Of a stretch of 48,631 bases of DNA, positions 4,642-34,200 are shown piece by piece. A model generated the notes under the pieces. It did no database searches and was not told where the DNA came from. It worked only from the letters and a program-made list of their open reading frames with translations. How positions within the stretch are numbered: position 1 is the stretch's first letter; every line of letters starts with the position of its first letter. The translations under genes were made by a program, and so were the position numbers. The stretch spans positions 1-48,631 of IMG/VR virus record IMGVR_UViG_3300002175_000003; one strand, given 5' to 3'. This DNA is from a virus.

Positions 4642-4917
4642 TCACAATTCCCTGTAATTCACTGCCAAAAATTGGGCGAGTTGTTCTACTGTTACGATCG
4701 GGTCTGTCGTGCGAGGCGCCCCAAAGCCGTATTCCAGCATGCATCGGCGGCCATCTGGCAATTCAAGCTCGCCTTCGACTGACTTGCCTTCGTCAACCAG
4801 CGCTACGACCCGTTTCACGACCCATTTCTTGCCTTCCAAGATCGACACTTTCAGCCGCAAATGCGTATCGCAGAACCAAGCGTATCGCTCAAGCGTCAGT
4901 TCCCATGGGTAGCCCAT
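4642..4917 (-). CDS. hypothetical protein (91 aa)
   Basis: ORF track. Abuts the primase stop and the next start. Confidence 0.5.
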   Translation of the reverse strand: MGYPWELTLERYAWFCDTHLRLKVSILEGKKWVVKRVVALVDEGKSVEGELELPDGRRCMLEYGFGAPRTTDPIVTVEQLAQFLAVNYREL

Positions 4918-19900: not shown

Positions 19901-20299
19901 GCAAACAGGTTTATAAATGGCGACCTTATGGGGGTTGCCGAAATAGTGTTCTCGCCGGCCGAGAGGAGACGCTTGCAGCACATTGCGGATAACCCCGAAC
20001 CGTACTACACGGCAAGACGCGATACAGGGTACGGTGGTCGTGGCGCCGTTGTAGGTGCTTACGCGACCGCGCACATGGTTCATGGGATTATTCCGGGTGC
20101 TGAAGTGGTTCCAGGGGCGCTAACTGGGGCGGAACGAATCAGGGCCATGGTTCTAAGTCGCCGAGCGAGTGACGTGCGAAAATACAGCGAATTAGCTTCT
20201 CGCCCGATGAGGCATTTTTTGAGCGAGACCGGTTCGATGATCGGTGCTGAAACCGGCAGAGACGTAAATGAGAGGACTCGCAGCCATGCTGTTCGGTAA
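13979..20299 (+). CDS. giant virion-associated multidomain protein (2106 aa): alpha/beta-hydrolase-like, LAS/M15-type zinc peptidase, SLT-like transglycosylase, Gly/Ala-rich TM segments
   Basis: Start at the ATG 13979 with GGGAGG upstream. Motifs: SHSLGS nucleophile elbow (~16570); SAHSVNH..GGAADVE..GNLHVG (~17000-17390); HIESYGDPN...GLYQLS (~17640-17760). Gly-zipper hydrophobic region ~18500-18870. P/T/Q linkers. Confidence 0.75.
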   Translation: MASGDLFDGEDQFEGGLYTPEKFEWKPYGSSTSSTPEPTPSPTPAAAPDAPLPRARPAIPAEDSPRTTQSSQTSEPGQSGQPISLAPSNPIQLTPTPSTPQTQAAQAQPVQTPTPQTQAELAKNSAAAKNLNEEREAYVKALASVDRQLATAQNKPLIFLKNLGGINTSYSDEDIAKLDARRGELFGKLQEIDKQIEALKTANTHASQMGVLPRTAGQNLESVYYDAGPKMAEGNVSTALNLARAKDDDTLGNEVKAAARNSYNNNLYKFLPALNRTLNSADAAVGELDKVAAAGQGRYDEARPALQAEFDRLTASAGVAEVKLPTGPGSALKAAGAVETLRYQLSAARQLWGSQLQQFSLQTSFTAPPAKDMKDVDAQWRPAFNVGNIVPGTGTIVIPEDSQKNPYVGLNLGTGTGAWVKTNNFDESPFGRDGQRSLASIDDEKRIRGNINSQANAQMLREGVAFSVLHSLTKAADKEGWDNASTVQHVKSQLDSLSRGGSRGAASTPGVAKFMERLNGLPQDMIDKIDTQLASFNSVLAGTPTGQRISNATIGQLKNAINNIYAARMDAIGSTLGGDAREAGSLGLPISRLGVSRDIQDVVRPHWEAGRRETLENLFNADYVVDSGGRLVLRQPMVTGVGEKPAERAWVKGYSPTWPDPFAEPAQTATQTPQAATQTPPATRTPQTPQTAEPTEEPEPRILYQEQQQPSPASSTSPEGGGALAMSPGLAAARAVTAPTTPTTPQPETPATPATPTTPTTPATQPEASNQWQRGMNPTAWYEGDKDRPIAYIAAGKKDAYIHRFGREEGEKRYQEDVRHLSETARARGAVPVVLAPTSDQASQQRELEKELQQARKDHRKAFVVSHSLGSYSARRLIRDMHYSDVVPEGNWIGTGITDRNEDVNNELRSHGARDHFDLPRAMAEKAWRERQSRAPEAAPGTPGASEAPNEQPQQIAFRSEEAGQPAKPMTPEALLRSRLAPLPPRTPAPAPETPESPQEAQAGPKLEYVSNIRVKDRPYVVHETLAGQIREAARHAGIVRVVVTSAGQDSEKTPGARRTSAHSVNHDLVAKDGKIGGGAADVELYAPDGHKLRVGEPRDEDMLKKFVTKAAELGVSGFGGSANYQDGNLHVGGGARPETHYWGGPKDDGVPAKWLPGAAKEGWERRGWTVKGPADHGFTSVNPRVALQHRESLRAQSGEVEASPPRQYTPEEKIQRSRAADAHIESYGDPNKVRLYRNREGKLVESQYKGLYQLSSKQFDEYNNDVRTGAWKGEPVVFGGPKGEEGWRNPAYQERVKEWREAKDGKILEAAGFENNGPNRYILHNQGAAGGPALLRAAKENPNAPAWRVVKEAAPKEPDPLTNISGNVLASDFKRFTGQEWPGSASKVTASQLVKYWTNKHEYHQELAANPGAAVRSMRARQAEGEGEAAAGGMLRRGIRAVGRALSATSSAPARYGEPGSAQRQAADTAAMRWRDEHPILAAMTEPTDYGTRPPSEVESYNQGMQQAAKMVIPAAAGMAVAPMGAALVGGTGWGATGAGMAAGGLAAGGTQAGMNVLSGRPVGENVVSQAIFGGIPAVQGTKISSALGRALLSGVGGAAEPAIEGRGPYDIGLAGVVGAGLGIAGETVARAARALPRSAALSIDALGERMQQAFAEMPEEAQTTVKRLLDTATDGRTRAARERAHAELARRFNMSPEEVSNFRALADTQTTLAGKRLIEKITGEPARPQTPEEASFNLRETARGALSDARADYRFVENSINNRTAASIRSNHAGQIEPTNAAHSSYVRLDEINANTARPPATGTGAPRQLNNREKFIQLRELRSDITASAAVEDGVRKSELLRARNEVDRAIRDHLGRTVPSHSARDLEIMLRNADRKYAEAAAMAGEHFNNLKAGSLNMYDFGEAIVRMVDSKSVKNPLLHGSDAGEALVRTFYANANRYQIPAAREAIKIGLIDAVFSSALKKKEEITKAANRFINGDLMGVAEIVFSPAERRRLQHIADNPEPYYTARRDTGYGGRGAVVGAYATAHMVHGIIPGAEVVPGALTGAERIRAMVLSRRASDVRKYSELASRPMRHFLSETGSMIGAETGRDVNERTRSHAVR

Positions 20300-20600
20300 G
20301 CCAACTCAATCGGTACGCGACAAGATCATCTCGGAATTCCGTGCTGGGTATCCTGCCGACCAAGTTGCCGCAACGGTCGATATGCTTGAAAAAGAGCTTT
20401 ACGACATGCGGAAGGAAGACCCCGTGTTCGATCGGCTTTGCAAGATTGCCGAAGCCTACGGGGCCAAGCAGAGATGGGATATCGTAAACAGTACTGCTGC
20501 CGGATGCGTGAGAGCATTCCAGCGGCAGGAGTTGAAGACTTGGGCAAGCGGTGCTGACCGCATTCCGGAGAAGTCGATTGAGGACTACATCAACGACTGA
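20286..20600 (+). CDS. hypothetical HTH-like protein (104 aa); weak resemblance to small-terminase N-terminal HTH
   Basis: Start at the ATG 20286. DKIISEFRAGYPADQVAATVDMLEKELYDMRKEDPVF resembles the TerS-type HTH..W...d.eF pattern. Not adjacent to terL. Confidence 0.45.
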   Translation: MLFGKPTQSVRDKIISEFRAGYPADQVAATVDMLEKELYDMRKEDPVFDRLCKIAEAYGAKQRWDIVNSTAAGCVRAFQRQELKTWASGADRIPEKSIEDYIND

Positions 20601-20769
20601 ATTTTTTGCATGATGAAAACGGTACGGTTTTTGTTACGGGCTCGCCGCGGTGGGCGGTTTCATCAGTTAGCAGTGTAGCTTTTATGAAGCACATTTCATT
20701 TCATTTCTCCCTAGCAGTCATGAAACGCTGCTACAATTATGATAACTAAGCAGATAACGCCAACGACGA

Positions 20770-20904
20770 CTACAAACATTTTTTCCTCCTGAGAAAGTCA
20801 GGGATATCGAGAGGGTGTCGCTGACCGGGCCAGAGGCCGGTCACGGGGTTGCGTTGCAGTTCTGGCCGGTCCCATGGCCAGCGTGGTCGTTCCCAAGGGT
20901 ACAT
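20770..20904 (-). CDS. small W/P/R-rich protein (44 aa), antisense to the late arm
   Basis: ATG at 20904 is preceded by GGAGGAATAAA. That SD overlaps the stop of the upstream 47-aa ORF. Confidence 0.5.
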   Translation of the reverse strand: MYPWERPRWPWDRPELQRNPVTGLWPGQRHPLDIPDFLRRKKCL

Positions 20905-20905
20905 T

Positions 20906-21049
20906 TTATTCCTCCAGAAAGAGCAGGATTCCGGCGACGGCAGCGAGGCCGATGGAAACGGCAATTTTGTTTGTTGCGCCTGCCGCACCAGAAAAAACGC
21001 ACAAGATTGCTGCTGTGAGGCTTTTCAGGCGTCTGCGGGGGTATTCCAT
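20906..21049 (-). CDS. small membrane protein (47 aa, 2 TM)
   Basis: ATG at 21049 with AGGAGA 9 nt upstream. Hydrophobic segments LTAAILCVFSGAAGA and IAVSIGLAAVAGILLFL. Confidence 0.5.
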   Translation of the reverse strand: MEYPRRRLKSLTAAILCVFSGAAGATNKIAVSIGLAAVAGILLFLEE

Positions 21050-21080
21050 TTTTGCATGTCTCCTATGCAATTTTTTCATA

Positions 21081-21106
21081 CCGTACACGTGTACGTGTGT
21101 ACGCTT
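21081..21106. promoter_or_regulatory. Operator-like cluster: 14-bp perfect palindrome CGTACACGTGTACG (21082-21095) overlapping GTGTGTACGCTT (21095-21106, reverse complement AAGCGTACACAC)
   Basis: Read directly. Sits in the divergent intergenic region between 21049(-) and 21154(+). Confidence 0.7.
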
Positions 21107-21153
21107 TTGCCGTGATAACGTCAACGGGTAAATCAAACTTTGGAGTTAACAGG

Positions 21154-21894
21154 ATGCCTAATCCTATCGTCAATTGGCCCACTCCTGGCGGTGGGTTCCG
21201 GCATTTTTCCGGGCTTCTGCCGTGTTCTTCGCTGCTCGGCGACCCACATCATGCTTCGGTGCGTACGTTTCACGTGCCGATTGCGAATACGCAGGCTATT
21301 TTCCGCGGCGATATTGTTGTCTGGGCTGATGCAGCGCATCCGACCCAGGGGGCAGCCGACATGCCCTACAATGTTGCCGCACCCGTCCCGGCACCATCTG
21401 TGGCAAATCCCGGATTCGGCGGGACCGGTCTGGGCAACAGCTCAATGGCCCCAAATGTGGCACGCTGGACGCCCGGCGACACGACGAGTTCGATTGCCGG
21501 CGTAGTTGTCGGCTTCGGGCCGATCACGCTCTTCATGGCCAAAAACGGCTTTCAGTACATCCCGGCTGGGATGGAAGCGTGGGTTTCGGTCGATACCGAC
21601 CCCGATCTCGAAATGTACGCTACGTTCCCGGCAGTTCCGGCGACCGCATTCAGGCTGCAACTTGGCAGCAATATCGACGTGATCACCGATCTGACGAAGC
21701 AGAGCGTGAAGTTCGGAATCAGCGGTCTTTCACTCGACGCAGCAACGATCGCCCTTACGCCAACGCTGCCGTTGCGCGTGCTTAACAGCACGTTCCAGAT
21801 TGGTAACATTCCGGAAGTGTCTGGGTTCGTCGCTCGTGTAACATTTAACCGAAACCGGCACCTTCGTGGAAATGCTGGCCCCGTTGCTGACTAA
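21154..21894 (+). CDS. hypothetical virion protein (246 aa)
   Basis: ATG at 21154 with TGGAG upstream. High GC3. Located in the late arm. Confidence 0.6.
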   Translation: MPNPIVNWPTPGGGFRHFSGLLPCSSLLGDPHHASVRTFHVPIANTQAIFRGDIVVWADAAHPTQGAADMPYNVAAPVPAPSVANPGFGGTGLGNSSMAPNVARWTPGDTTSSIAGVVVGFGPITLFMAKNGFQYIPAGMEAWVSVDTDPDLEMYATFPAVPATAFRLQLGSNIDVITDLTKQSVKFGISGLSLDAATIALTPTLPLRVLNSTFQIGNIPEVSGFVARVTFNRNRHLRGNAGPVAD

Positions 21895-29882: not shown

Positions 29883-31416
29883 ATCTCGGTGTGTCGTAGT
29901 CGTTGACGGCAAACGTGCAGATCACCGCGTCGAGGCGGTCGGGAGACCGGCCAATTTCTGCCCGTATCTTTTCTTTCGGCGTAACGAACAGGCGCGCATG
30001 CTCGTCGCGACGACAGCCGGCGGTCCCCCATTTGTATGCAGCGCATTCTTCTTGCAGCATTTTGTCATTCTTGACCGAGACTGACCCGTTCAAATACTGG
30101 GCAAATTTGAAGTGAAGCTCAGCGCGACGATTGGCAAACTGCACGGAATTATGGGCGCCAGAACCGAAGCTGACCGGGATGATCCTGTTCCCCCGGTCGC
30201 GCATTCGCAGCCGGAGAGCGTCGACGAGACCCTTGCCGATGCCGGTCGAGTCAATGCAGATGACGTCCATATCGTAGCGTTCGTACGCGGCCCGTATCCA
30301 GTCTGCCTGGACGTTCTGGTCGGAATTTTTAATCTCGCCCCAAATTCTGTTCCCGATGCAGCACCCCTGGCGGTCGCAGACGAACGTGCTGTCGGAACCG
30401 TCGCCGGCTGGATCGACAGCCAGAATTTTCAACGTTCCTTCCGTCGGCGGAACCCGAGACAGCATGGCTTGCTGGACGAGTGACGGCGGGAAGAAATCGA
30501 GAGTGCTGTCGGCCAGAAAACATTCGGAATAAGTGACTGGAAATTCTTGTCGCGTGAGCCGATGAATGCTGTCAGGCGTGCCGCCGTTCATTGTGGCGAT
30601 GTCGTAGTTCTTCCGATAAAACCAGTAAGTTTGCGGCGGCGTCAACCTATGGATGCGACTGTACTCGACGAGTTCAAGTGGAGGCTGCCACTTATCCGGA
30701 ACCTCTTCTTTGTAGTCCACCATGGCGGTCCATGGTAGAAAATGCATGCGCCAAAGACCGGTGTTGTTTTCCCGATGCGCCTGTTCGCACATATTGAAAA
30801 ACATGCCGCTCGCCCCGTTGCCGGTCGATTCCATGAAAATTTCCGTGCCGACTTGATCGAGCACGGTCTGTAAAATTCCAGACGACAAGTCTTCGGTGTT
30901 GTCAAAAAAAGCGGCCTCGGAAAAGTGTAGATAGTGAGTGTCTTCTGACCGCCCGATGTTCCCGCCTTCCGCCGACGAAACGCGGTAGGACGATTGGAGT
31001 CGGCTGAAAATCAACTCACGTGCGTTTGAGGCGCCGGTCACTGGCCGGATAGGTTCCGGAAGTTCTTCGTAGAATGTGCGGACTTCGCGATGAAGGTGGC
31101 TGGCGCTATCGTTACGGTGAGCCACAACGTGGGCTCGCCGGCCGCGTTTTGACAAGACTGCGTGGAAGAACCGCGCGCTGATGTAGGTTGAAACGCCCAT
31201 GCGGCGCGCTTTTGGGACAAGCGCGCGCACGCGGCCGTACGTTTTCCTCTCCAATTCGATACGCTGGTGGAGAATTTCTTGTGCTGGGTTGAGGATAAAG
31301 TGGATGCGTCGGCCGCCTTCGCGCGGCCGAATCATCAGGAATCTTTCGCGGTACCAGTTGAAATCGCAGATGCGGTCACTGATAGCTTGCGGGGTTGCCC
31401 TTTCCCATGGCCACAT
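29881..31416 (-). CDS. terL: terminase large subunit
   Basis: Walker A-like KARRMGVST. Nuclease-domain motifs AVDPAGDGSD, IDSTGIGKG and C-terminal SPDRLDAV. Confidence 0.85.
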   Translation of the reverse strand: MWPWERATPQAISDRICDFNWYRERFLMIRPREGGRRIHFILNPAQEILHQRIELERKTYGRVRALVPKARRMGVSTYISARFFHAVLSKRGRRAHVVAHRNDSASHLHREVRTFYEELPEPIRPVTGASNARELIFSRLQSSYRVSSAEGGNIGRSEDTHYLHFSEAAFFDNTEDLSSGILQTVLDQVGTEIFMESTGNGASGMFFNMCEQAHRENNTGLWRMHFLPWTAMVDYKEEVPDKWQPPLELVEYSRIHRLTPPQTYWFYRKNYDIATMNGGTPDSIHRLTRQEFPVTYSECFLADSTLDFFPPSLVQQAMLSRVPPTEGTLKILAVDPAGDGSDSTFVCDRQGCCIGNRIWGEIKNSDQNVQADWIRAAYERYDMDVICIDSTGIGKGLVDALRLRMRDRGNRIIPVSFGSGAHNSVQFANRRAELHFKFAQYLNGSVSVKNDKMLQEECAAYKWGTAGCRRDEHARLFVTPKEKIRAEIGRSPDRLDAVICTFAVNDYDTPR

Positions 31417-31637
31417 TATTTTTTGCCGGTTTTTATTTCCAAGCCAAAAATTAGCCCGAGGCCAATGAGCAGGGCGTTCCCGAGGTCGATGCTTTCAAAC
31501 CCTGGAATCTCAACCCCAAATACTGACCGCGCGGTTGCGGCAGCAATAACTGCAAGACCGGCGACGGTCGTTTTCCAGTGTATGAGACATTGCTGAAGGA
31601 ACGAGGATTTTTCGGGTGTCGTAGGGGTATCGGTCAT
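31416..31637 (-). CDS. small membrane protein (73 aa, 2 TM); holin candidate
   Basis: Start at the ATG 31637 with AAGGAGAA 7 nt upstream. The stop overlaps the terL ATG. Confidence 0.5.
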   Translation of the reverse strand: MTDTPTTPEKSSFLQQCLIHWKTTVAGLAVIAAATARSVFGVEIPGFESIDLGNALLIGLGLIFGLEIKTGKK

Positions 31638-31657: not shown

Positions 31658-31670
31658 CCGTACACACTAC
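31658..31670. promoter_or_regulatory. CCGTACACACTAC copy of the strand-switch motif
   Basis: Lies in the 37-nt divergent gap between 31637(-) and 31675(+). Confidence 0.5.
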
Positions 31671-32091: not shown

Positions 32092-32431
32092 CCTGGTGCT
32101 GGCGATCGTGCTGTCGGGGTGCCAGCACGTAAGCATCCCCGACCACCAGCCCGCCGGCTGGCACCGGCCGGCCAAATGGTGCGGCTGGTGGCTGGCGACT
32201 CGACACCGCATGTTTGATCGCCGCCTGTGGAAAGCTTCTGAGTGGCGCCATGTTGGGATGCCGGCCCCCGGTCCCGCACCAGGAGTCATTGGCGTCCTCC
32301 CCCATCATGTTTTCGAAGTCGTTGAAGCAGGGCCACCTGGCTTCGTTCTCGCGATATCGGGCAACTACAGGCACGCCGTCCGCGAGCATCGGCAATCGAC
32401 TCGTGGGGTTGTCTGGCGGCGACTACCGTGA
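32069..32431 (+). CDS. lipoprotein with NlpC/P60-like (TIGR02594-like) cell-wall peptidase domain (120 aa)
   Basis: Lipobox LSGC after a hydrophobic h-region. WCGWW...ASEW..G......PG.IGV...HHV..V.......ISGNY..AV pattern. High GC3. Confidence 0.55.
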   Translation: MIQRALSSLVLAIVLSGCQHVSIPDHQPAGWHRPAKWCGWWLATRHRMFDRRLWKASEWRHVGMPAPGPAPGVIGVLPHHVFEVVEAGPPGFVLAISGNYRHAVREHRQSTRGVVWRRLP

Positions 32432-32944
32432 ATACGGATCGTAGTTGACTGGCGGGTACCAACTTCCCATGAACAATTCCGGCTGGCGGGTGACCGGAAC
32501 CCGCTGGACATGGCCGCCATCAATGAACGAGCTTGTGCGACCGGTCCCCCAGTCAATGCCGGAGACGAGTTTGAACTGTCTCGCCAGATCGCGTAAAAAT
32601 AAGTAGTATTTAATGTCTCCTTGGTATTTCCCGCCTGAGAATATCCCGAGGTCTGCCGCAACCCCGTAGCCATGCGTTCCGACGGTCCGGAGTTGCGTGG
32701 CTTTCTGCATGAACAGCCTGGATTGCCGGGCTTGCGACCGGTAGGTTTCGAGGACTCGTACGTCGATACCGCGCTCCTTGGCCTTGTTGGTGAGCGCCTG
32801 GACGGCCGCGCGCGTGCCGGGCTCCAGCATGGCAAGGTCTTTGCAGATTTCGCCATCTTTCCGGAACCATGGCGAGTTGCGAATGACCTCCTGGTAGAAA
32901 TTCACACCAGCACCCAATTTCCAGTTGCGGCGGTCGCGAACCAT
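32423..32944 (-). CDS. endolysin, peptidase M15 (VanY/LAS-type) family
   Basis: YRSQARQ, HGYGVAADL and DGGHVQ zinc-ligand motifs. The start may be internal, because the ORF overlaps the upstream gene by 43 nt. Confidence 0.75.
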   Translation of the reverse strand: MVRDRRNWKLGAGVNFYQEVIRNSPWFRKDGEICKDLAMLEPGTRAAVQALTNKAKERGIDVRVLETYRSQARQSRLFMQKATQLRTVGTHGYGVAADLGIFSGGKYQGDIKYYLFLRDLARQFKLVSGIDWGTGRTSSFIDGGHVQRVPVTRQPELFMGSWYPPVNYDPYSR

Positions 32945-33519: not shown

Positions 33520-34200
33520 TCACATCTTCACGCGGATCGTCGCGAGGTATGCATTTTGGAATGGCTGGGTTGCAAATCCGCCGATCACAATTCCACCAGA
33601 ATCGTGCTTCCACTCGATAGAGGTATCTAGTACCCATCCGTTCTGCATTCTCTGCAATGCACCTATGCCTGCACCGTATGAGAAGAGCCAGACATTCCTG
33701 CTCGCCGGCCCAAGAGTCGCCGAAACGTTATCCTGGTAGGTGGACGCAAAGATGTACGGCCGCGGCGGGCCGCCGGTCGATATGGCCGGTAGTGACGGCA
33801 TGCCATCGCGGAGCCGGAACCATTCAGCTATGCGATCCAGGTATGACTGGGGTACGCCCAGCGCATACCTTTGCTGAAGAGCCAGCGCGGTCCCGAGTGA
33901 GAGATTGCCGCTGGCGTTAACGCCTTGGACCGCGACTGTCTGCTCGACGAACCAAAACGTGTCGCGCCATGTGCCGTGATAGCCAACGTCAAAACCGGCA
34001 CGGATGCCGACCGTTGCGCCGGCCTGGAACGGGCTGGCTGCGCTGGCGGTCCCCCCGAGGCCCGCAAGTGACGCTCCGAAGAACCAGCCGCGAATTTCTG
34101 GGTACTGCGGCACGGCGGAGCGCGGTAGCGGCGTAAGGTCTGCTGCGGCCGCGGTGCTCGACAAGAACGCCGCAGCGATAAAAGTCGCAAGCTTGCGCAT
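33520..34200 (-). CDS. outer-membrane beta-barrel protein with signal peptide (Omp25/OmpW/Lom-like moron)
   Basis: MRKLATFIAAAFLSSTAAAADL signal peptide. Alternating aromatic/glycine beta-strand pattern. Confidence 0.6.
   Translation of the reverse strand: MRKLATFIAAAFLSSTAAAADLTPLPRSAVPQYPEIRGWFFGASLAGLGGTASAASPFQAGATVGIRAGFDVGYHGTWRDTFWFVEQTVAVQGVNASGNLSLGTALALQQRYALGVPQSYLDRIAEWFRLRDGMPSLPAISTGGPPRPYIFASTYQDNVSATLGPASRNVWLFSYGAGIGALQRMQNGWVLDTSIEWKHDSGGIVIGGFATQPFQNAYLATIRVKM

What the first reader, a model, noticed from the sequence alone, without database searches (positions are those of the whole stretch)
20770..21049. Antisense two-gene micro-cassette inside the late arm
Two translationally coupled small ORFs run against the flow of the late arm. 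One is a 47-aa two-TM protein. The other is a 44-aa W/P/R-rich basic protein (MYPWERPRWPWDRPELQRNPVTGLWPGQRHPL...).

Each has a strong SD. The stop of the first lies inside the SD GGAGGAATAAAATG of the second.

They are driven from the gap that carries the palindromic operator cluster. The overlapping plus-strand ORFs look like non-coding shadows.

A possible third 34-codon ORF follows, antisense to the 3' end of 20286..20600.

Candidate roles are superinfection exclusion, lysis timing (antiholin-like), a small membrane toxin with its partner, or a lysogeny or carrier-state moron.
Basis: partly seen in the sequence, partly recalled or inferred. Interest (0 to 1): 0.6.

Follow-up and report, generated by a model that had tools for sequence, protein, structure and literature searches.

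The report
Phage mini-protein copying FtsZ docking tail
A small backward-facing gene cluster in an uncultured phage is built around a conserved 44-residue protein that carries a near-exact copy of the short tail the bacterial division protein FtsZ uses to dock on its membrane anchors, so it probably jams or rides the host's division ring, but nobody has tested this.

Summary
The antisense cassette is real, but it has three genes, and the key gene is not the membrane one. ORF B (20904..20770, 44 aa) has 24 homologues. A B-type gene sits antisense between the same two flanking genes in all 12 related loci, while its neighbours turn over. Its residues 32-40, LDIPDFLRR, match the commonest alphaproteobacterial FtsZ tail (LDIPAFLRR) at 8 of 9 positions, including the residues equivalent to E. 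coli I374 and L378. It is the top-scoring 9-mer in the genome (chance expectation 1e-4). LDIP[A/D/E]FLRR occurs in about 34 unrelated phage protein families; a permuted control gives one. Best reading (0.5): a decoy that competes with FtsZ for FtsA-type anchors and delays division. B also starts with a PW[E/D] tag shared with this family's large terminase. ORF A (47 aa) has no homologue. A missed 22-aa membrane ORF C is real; the 34-codon ORF is unsupported. Toxin-antitoxin and antiholin readings fail. Host, expression and binding are untested. I found no paper on such mimics; this scan has noted FtsZ-tail mimics before on other DNA.

The parts
21096..21124 (-). Promoter-like site: TTGACG (21124-21119), 17 nt, TACACA (21101-21096); lacks the -7 T
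   Evidence: the same layout TTG(A/C)xx-N16-18-TAxxxx lies in the same gap in L001, L002, L006, L030, L044-L047 and L052. It fails the generic consensus scan. Function inferred.
21082..21106 (.). 14-bp palindrome (21082-21095) fused to the AAGCGTACACAC box; likely operator over the promoter
   Evidence: the box occurs three times, each in a divergent gap (21104-, 38446+, 44178+); about 0.003 expected (motif chosen after seeing it). L001 and L006 have a related 12-bp palindrome at the same place.
20906..21049 (-). ORF A, 47 aa, orphan membrane protein (one clear TM, one marginal or signal-like segment)
   Evidence: SD AGGAG at 21064-21060; hydropathy; no homologue; no family hit.
20770..20904 (-). 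ORF B, 44 aa, conserved core gene of the cassette
   Evidence: 24 homologues (alignment A1); syntenic in 12 related loci; pairwise differences by codon position 0.25, 0.18, 0.64.
20869..20898 (-). Two PW[E/D] motifs in B (aa 3-5 and 10-12); N-terminal tag shared with the large terminase (31416) and the 91-aa gene at 4917
   Evidence: 14 start-proximal PW[E/D] in five genomes against 2-7 for permuted controls.
20812..20868 (-). Conserved core of B (aa 13-31) with invariant PGQ; role unknown
   Evidence: invariant P26, G27, Q28; model pLDDT 82-90 over aa 11-40.
20785..20811 (-). LDIPDFLRR (aa 32-40), FtsZ C-terminal-peptide-like motif; its last two codons (AGG AGG) double as the SD of ORF C
   Evidence: profile of FtsZ tails; PMC4117426; (homologues keep RR with other codons).
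20711..20779 (-).
   Evidence: SD AGGAGG, spacing 5. A diverged strain contig in run X2 keeps the frame with 13 of 30 bases changed, matches by codon position 5, 9, 3 of 10; P 1.5e-4 against random changes. One low-depth contig.
20286..20600 (+). Left flanking gene (104 aa; weak small-terminase-like PHROG hit, E 0.11), conserved boundary of the slot
   Evidence: 17 of 18 strain differences are silent.
21154..21894 (+). Right flanking gene (246 aa), divergent from the cassette, conserved boundary of the slot
   Evidence: 53-64% identity in relatives.

Best explanation
The cassette is a variable slot of small host-interaction genes, read from its own leftward promoter, in an uncultured podovirus-like family. 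Its one constant gene, B, is an FtsZ-tail decoy. Shown: B is a conserved coding gene, is kept in this slot, and carries a motif that matches the FtsZ conserved C-terminal peptide at the residues known to matter. Inferred: B is made early (it shares the strand of the replication genes), binds the FtsZ-tail pocket of the host's membrane anchors (most likely FtsA; FzlC or ZipA where present), displaces FtsZ from the membrane, and delays division so the infected cell stays one undivided compartment. The PGQ core may add affinity or stability (inferred). A and C are lineage-specific membrane passengers of unknown role.
For: B matches the commonest alphaproteobacterial tail (LDIPAFLRR, 12 of 27) at 8 of 9 positions. 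It scores 25.1 bits, inside FtsZ's own range (20.3-33.0), and is first among 75,251 six-frame 9-mers (next 13.7; expected 1.2e-4). I374 and L378 equivalents are kept, and the one changed position (E. coli 376) tolerates A376P for FtsA and ZipA binding (PMC4117426). In A1, P35, F37 and L38 are invariant. L001 and L006 keep only the motif and lose the rest of B. In viral contigs the D, E and A forms give 33, 29 and 16 hits, none in FtsZ, in about 34 families, against 2 hits in one family for a permuted control. A, E and D interchange within one protein family. Named carriers are alphaproteobacterial: Bradyrhizobium sp. BTAi1 (A form) and Rhodovulum sp. PH10 (D form). FtsZ 354-383 fragments inhibit E. 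coli growth in trans (PMC10769210). Phages are known to block division (PMC3961180). Weak lead: the nearest named ESM cluster is FtsZ family, score 0.78.
Against: No proteobacterial FtsZ examined has D at this position (0 of 27 alphaproteobacterial tails; exact D form in 0 of 401 Pseudomonadota genomes), so B is not an exact host copy. B lacks the acidic run that precedes the motif in FtsZ. Some homologues drift (DDIPGFLKR). The motif also rides on methyltransferases, DUF1376 and DUF3310 proteins and 800-1000 aa proteins, which fits a general docking tag as well as an inhibitor. A lone tail peptide binds weakly (20-50 uM). The host is unknown. The motif was spotted first and scored afterwards.
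Confidence: 0.5

Rival explanations
1. B docks on an FtsZ-tail receptor but as an address label or adaptor, not a blocker. Its PW[E/D] end engages the same partner as the terminase N-terminus, and so links phage machinery to the membrane or division site.
For: PW[E/D] starts B, the large terminase and a 91-105 aa early protein across five genomes. 15 of 23 A1 rows carry it near the N-terminus. The FtsZ-like motif is grafted on many enzymes and large proteins.
Against: B homologues in unrelated elements lack PW but keep the core and the motif (P0005-7, P0017, P0018, P0025). No partner for the PW tag was identified.
Confidence: 0.2
2. The motif binds a host factor outside the Z-ring anchors, for example ClpX, which also reads the FtsZ tail. 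B would then be a protease decoy, or the motif a degradation tag.
For: ClpX is among five E. coli proteins reported to bind the tail (PMC4117426). Phages favour D or E over the native A (62 against 16 hits), which hints at a tuned specificity. A turnover tag would explain its presence on methyltransferases.
Against: The conserved residues are the I, P, F, L core; I374 and L378 are the ones reported critical for FtsA, ZipA and MinC. The motif is often internal or N-terminal rather than at a free C-terminus.
Confidence: 0.15
3. One reading: A and B act as a pair (membrane toxin with partner, antiholin, or exclusion moron).
For: A, B and C are translationally coupled. Most related cassettes contain one or more small membrane proteins.
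Against: A has no homologue and is not found with B elsewhere. L030 starts its cassette directly with B. The lysis genes are about 11 kb away. No family hit. No terminator found.
Confidence: 0.1
4. The FtsZ likeness is coincidence, or B is not a functional gene.
For: The motif is only nine residues; B's codon usage is not typical of the genome (-2.7 bits); no expression data.
Against: Purifying pattern at the codon level, 24 homologues, synteny in 12 of 12 loci, and 33 against 2 hits for motif and control.
Confidence: 0.05

Closest known systems
FtsZ conserved C-terminal peptide (CCTP/CTC; E. coli 370-383; PMC4117426, bioRxiv 10.1101/632075)
   Same: L-D-I-P-x-F-L-R-R core, 8 of 9 with the commonest alphaproteobacterial tail and 7 of 9 with E. 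coli; near the C-terminus in B.
   Different: No tubulin domain or linker; D instead of A at position 376; preceded by a PGQ core rather than an acidic run; encoded by a phage.
Lambda Kil, Qin DicB, P1 Icd, T7 Gp0.4, SPO1 gp56 (phage division inhibitors; PMC3961180, PMC11897509, bioRxiv 10.1101/2020.02.06.938217; Gp0.4 by name from my own knowledge)
   Same: Small accessory phage proteins in non-essential operons that are proposed or shown to stop host division.
   Different: No sequence likeness. They bind FtsZ itself, recruit MinC, or act on FtsL/DivIC; none is described as a copy of the FtsZ tail in the papers I found.
Engineered FtsZ C-terminal fragments (residues 354-383; PMC10769210)
   Same: A free tail peptide expressed in trans inhibits growth, which is the mechanism proposed for B.
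   Different: Laboratory fragments of the host protein, not a natural phage gene.
SSB C-terminal tail (DDDIPF; from my own knowledge)
   Same: Short acidic D-I-P-containing docking motif, also reused by phage proteins.
   Different: Needs F as the free last residue; B has I-P-x-F-L-R-R followed by four more residues.

Membership tests
FtsZ family | Tubulin-like GTPase domain | tested here: not met
   B is 44 aa with no Pfam, NCBIfam or PDB sequence hit. It is not an FtsZ.
FtsZ conserved C-terminal peptide (works like) | D-I-P-x-F-L-R core with I374 and L378 equivalents | tested here: met
FtsZ conserved C-terminal peptide (works like) | Small residue (A, T or S) at position 376, as in proteobacterial and acidobacterial tails | tested here: not met
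   B has D; 0 of 27 alphaproteobacterial and 0 of 14 acidobacterial tails do; one Lachnospiraceae tail does. A, D and E interchange in phage carriers.
FtsZ conserved C-terminal peptide (works like) | At the end of an acidic, disordered tail | tested here: inconclusive
   Four residues follow the motif in B, but no acidic run precedes it; 26 of 31 D-form carriers have D or E in the four residues before it.
FtsZ conserved C-terminal peptide (works like) | Binds FtsA, ZipA, FzlC or SepF | not testable with these tools
   Needs a binding assay.
Known phage division inhibitors (Kil, DicB, Icd, Gp0.4, gp56) | Sequence homology to a described inhibitor | tested here: not met
   No PHROG, Pfam or NCBIfam hit; no match among GenBank phages.
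Known phage division inhibitors (Kil, DicB, Icd, Gp0.4, gp56) | Filamentation or Z-ring loss on expression | not testable with these tools
   Bench test.
Holin/antiholin (ORF A) | Lies in the lysis cassette with the endolysin | tested here: not met
   Endolysin at 32944..32423 (PHROG E 1.5e-10) and a holin-like 73-aa gene at 31637..31416 are about 11 kb away.
Toxin-antitoxin pair (A with B) | Both genes conserved together | tested here: not met
   A not found in related loci or in four whole related genomes that carry B.
Moron (lysogenic conversion cassette) | Own promoter and terminator | tested here: inconclusive
   Promoter-like site conserved; no terminator by scan or folding.
Moron (lysogenic conversion cassette) | Carried by a temperate phage | tested here: inconclusive
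   No integrase among the ORFs scanned, but not every ORF was scanned; no true B homologue found in 401 alphaproteobacterial genomes searched.
Superinfection exclusion protein (A or C) | Inner-membrane protein that blocks DNA entry | not testable with these tools
   Both are hydrophobic; no homology to a described protein.

The most novel reading that the evidence does not exclude
B is a two-ended adaptor. One end carries a PW[E/D] tag shared with the phage's terminase; the other copies the FtsZ tail. It would couple phage packaging or replication machinery to the host's division-site anchors. More widely, the FtsZ tail would be a docking motif that phages of alphaproteobacteria have acquired dozens of times.
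Probability: 0.12. Interest if true: 0.85.

Novelty: new variant of a known kind. Interest (0 to 1): 0.6.

Why it matters
Phage division inhibitors are known, but those described bind FtsZ or downstream divisome parts. A natural copy of the FtsZ docking tail would be a different route to the same end, aimed at the FtsZ-FtsA contact that is also an antibacterial target. B is a good test case: it is tiny, soluble, conserved in a fixed slot, and has obvious point-mutant controls. The same motif in about 34 unrelated phage protein families suggests a widespread, undescribed piece of mimicry, and one assay would bear on all of them.

Tried and rejected
Complex prediction of B (A1) with an alphaproteobacterial FtsA (A2): no answer, neither support nor evidence against. 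RNA evidence: no RNA holder listed; the two runs are DNA and may be this genome's source. Fold of B: short helices only, no Foldseek match in PDB; no PDB sequence match. GenBank phages: no DNA or protein match to the cassette. GTDB pattern scan: 8 hits, those inspected are non-coding or unrelated. A1 against 401 alphaproteobacterial genomes: six borderline hits (E 0.002-0.01), four with stops, treated as chance. P0008, P0019 and P0020 are long repetitive proteins without the motif and were dropped. Host of this phage not resolved: polymerase, head-closure, DUF932, endolysin and outer-membrane-like proteins gave only distant or uninformative hits. The 34-codon ORF was rejected (no homologue, codon score -6.2, SD 12 nt away behind two out-of-frame ATGs). 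No terminator or stable RNA structure downstream (z about -0.4). SSB-tail mimicry rejected because F is not terminal. Paper searches for an FtsZ-tail mimic in phages found none; the library lacks most subscription papers.

Full report
Setting. The window is a whole 48.6 kb phage genome, held in termite-gut DNA runs. It encodes a DNA polymerase, helicase, exonuclease, Gp2.5-like protein, terminase, portal, major head protein, Hc3 head closure and DNA-ejection protein. Related genomes of 50-53 kb exist in IMG/VR, with 60-62% terminase identity; no cultured relative is close. Replication genes lie on the minus strand, and several small minus-strand inserts interrupt the structural region. An antisense cassette is therefore normal for this genome.

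Observation. ORF A (21049..20906) and ORF B (20904..20770) are present as described, with SD sites AGGAG and GGAGG. A's stop lies between B's SD and its ATG. A third gene was missed: ORF C (20779..20711, 22 aa, one membrane segment), whose SD AGGAGG is formed by B's Arg39-Arg40 codons. A low-depth contig of a diverged strain keeps C's frame with conservative changes (13 of 30 bases changed; P 1.5e-4 against random changes). The 34-codon ORF has no such support. The plus-strand overlaps behave as shadows.

Promoter. A site TTGACG-N17-TACACA begins at 21124 on the minus strand, and a like site lies in the same gap in nine related loci. It lacks the -7 T, as most alphaproteobacterial sigma-70 promoters do (PMC8407463); this is only a hint about the host. 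The palindrome at 21082-21095 adjoins a box found in three divergent gaps.

B is the constant gene. Searches gave 24 homologues of 48-149 aa. In alignment A1 the invariant residues are P26, G27, Q28, P35, F37 and L38. Across 12 distinct coding sequences of the core, pairwise differences are 0.25, 0.18 and 0.64 at codon positions 1-3, so selection acts on this frame. In all 12 related loci examined (about eight lineages; L051 shows one flank only), a B-type gene lies antisense between homologues of 20286..20600 and 21154..21894. The slot spans about 0.5-2.4 kb and its other genes change freely, often including small membrane proteins. A has no homologue. Other B homologues sit in unrelated elements beside ParB-like, integrase, AAA_25 or HTH_17 genes.

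The motif. B residues 32-40 read LDIPDFLRR. Against that profile B scores 25.1 bits, within FtsZ's own range, and ranks first of 75,251 six-frame 9-mers in the window (next 13.7; expected 1.2e-4). I noticed the motif before scoring it, so the conservation and control counts carry more weight than this number. [quoted passage not shown] In Caulobacter it binds FtsA and FzlC (10.1101/632075). L001 and L006 keep the motif after losing the rest of B.

The motif is widespread in phages. Exact D, E and A forms give 33, 29 and 16 hits in viral contigs, none in an FtsZ; a permuted control gives 2. They fall into about 34 families against one for the control (three patterns against one, and a few singletons may be chance). 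Carriers include MT-A70 methyltransferases, DUF1376 and DUF3310 proteins, large proteins, and small proteins that end in the motif plus Q and two residues, as FtsZ does. A, D and E interchange within the methyltransferase family. Named carriers come from Bradyrhizobium sp. BTAi1 and Rhodovulum sp. PH10, and the closest cultured homologue of one carrier is in a Bradyrhizobium phage. The exact D form was not found in 401 Pseudomonadota genomes, so it is a phage variant and not a captured host sequence.

A second tag. B starts with PWE and repeats PWD. The large terminase and a 91-105 aa early protein also start with PW[E/D] across five genomes (14 cases against 2-7 for permuted controls). Homologues outside this phage family lack it. 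Its partner is unknown.

Mechanism. Shown: a conserved, syntenic gene with an FtsZ-tail-like motif. From established knowledge: free FtsZ tail fragments inhibit growth in trans (PMC10769210), and lambda Kil blocks division and delays lysis (PMC3961180). Inferred: B is expressed early, occupies the tail-binding site of FtsA or another anchor, and delays division (0.5).

Comparison. B is not an FtsZ and is not homologous to any described phage division inhibitor. It would work like the FtsZ tail peptide. Five paper searches found no phage protein described as an FtsZ-tail mimic. This scan has noted such mimics on other DNA; I had the idea before the look-up, and those notes are not independent evidence.

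Verdict. The feature is real and more specific than first read. It is a new variant of a known kind, with an untested but directly testable mechanism. Main gaps: host, expression and binding. Interest 0.6.

Noticed in passing
window 31416 (-), 4917 (-), 20904 (-); G431, G432, G433, G435: The large terminase, a 91-105 aa early protein and ORF B all begin with PW[E/D]; homologues of 20286..20600 in relatives also begin with PW within five residues. Looks like a family-wide N-terminal tag with an unknown partner.
   Followed up: partly
L010-L040, L140-L184: LDIP[A/D/E]FLRR is grafted onto about 34 unrelated phage protein families, including a 21-member MT-A70 methyltransferase group and a 13-member marine family with the motif at residue 12.
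   Followed up: partly
L152:7228-7557, L140:1968-2171, L151:6915-7130: Small prophage proteins (68-110 aa) that end in LDIPAFLRRQ plus two residues, the most FtsZ-like cases; one is Bradyrhizobium sp. BTAi1 BBta_6621, a cultured host suited to testing.
   Followed up: partly
window 21104 (-), 38446 (+), 44178 (+), 31658 (+): The box AAGCGTACACAC (shorter at 31658) recurs in divergent gaps; relatives carry repeated TGTCATACA words in the matching gap.
   Followed up: partly
window 42633-42197, 44055-43064, 45808-44889 (-): Further antisense inserts between structural genes: DUF6378, VRR-NUC, and an RHH plus GNAT pair.
   Followed up: partly
window 33520-34200 (-): 226-aa protein with a signal peptide; one of four homologues is named opacity-protein-like surface antigen, which points to a host with an outer membrane.
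   Followed up: partly
L001:4271-4477 (-), L002:4372-4716 (-), L006:4892-5098, L052:1239-1442: A recurring two-segment membrane protein (starts MH[FVI]L) in the same slot in four relatives; not found to be similar to ORF A.
   Followed up: no
L128:4311-4958, L125:4257-4769, L002:3719-4003: The same slot holds a SprT-like protein in L128 and cysteine-rich, possibly homing-endonuclease-like frames in L125 and L002.
   Followed up: no
G431, G432 against G433, G435 and the window: The orientation of the terminase gene relative to the portal and polymerase genes differs among relatives: same strand as the portal in the window, opposite in the four others.
   Followed up: no
window 21057..21025 (-): A 10-codon out-of-frame upstream ATG frame overlaps the start of ORF A, and the mRNA there folds weakly over A's SD (z -1.9); possible translational control.
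   Followed up: no
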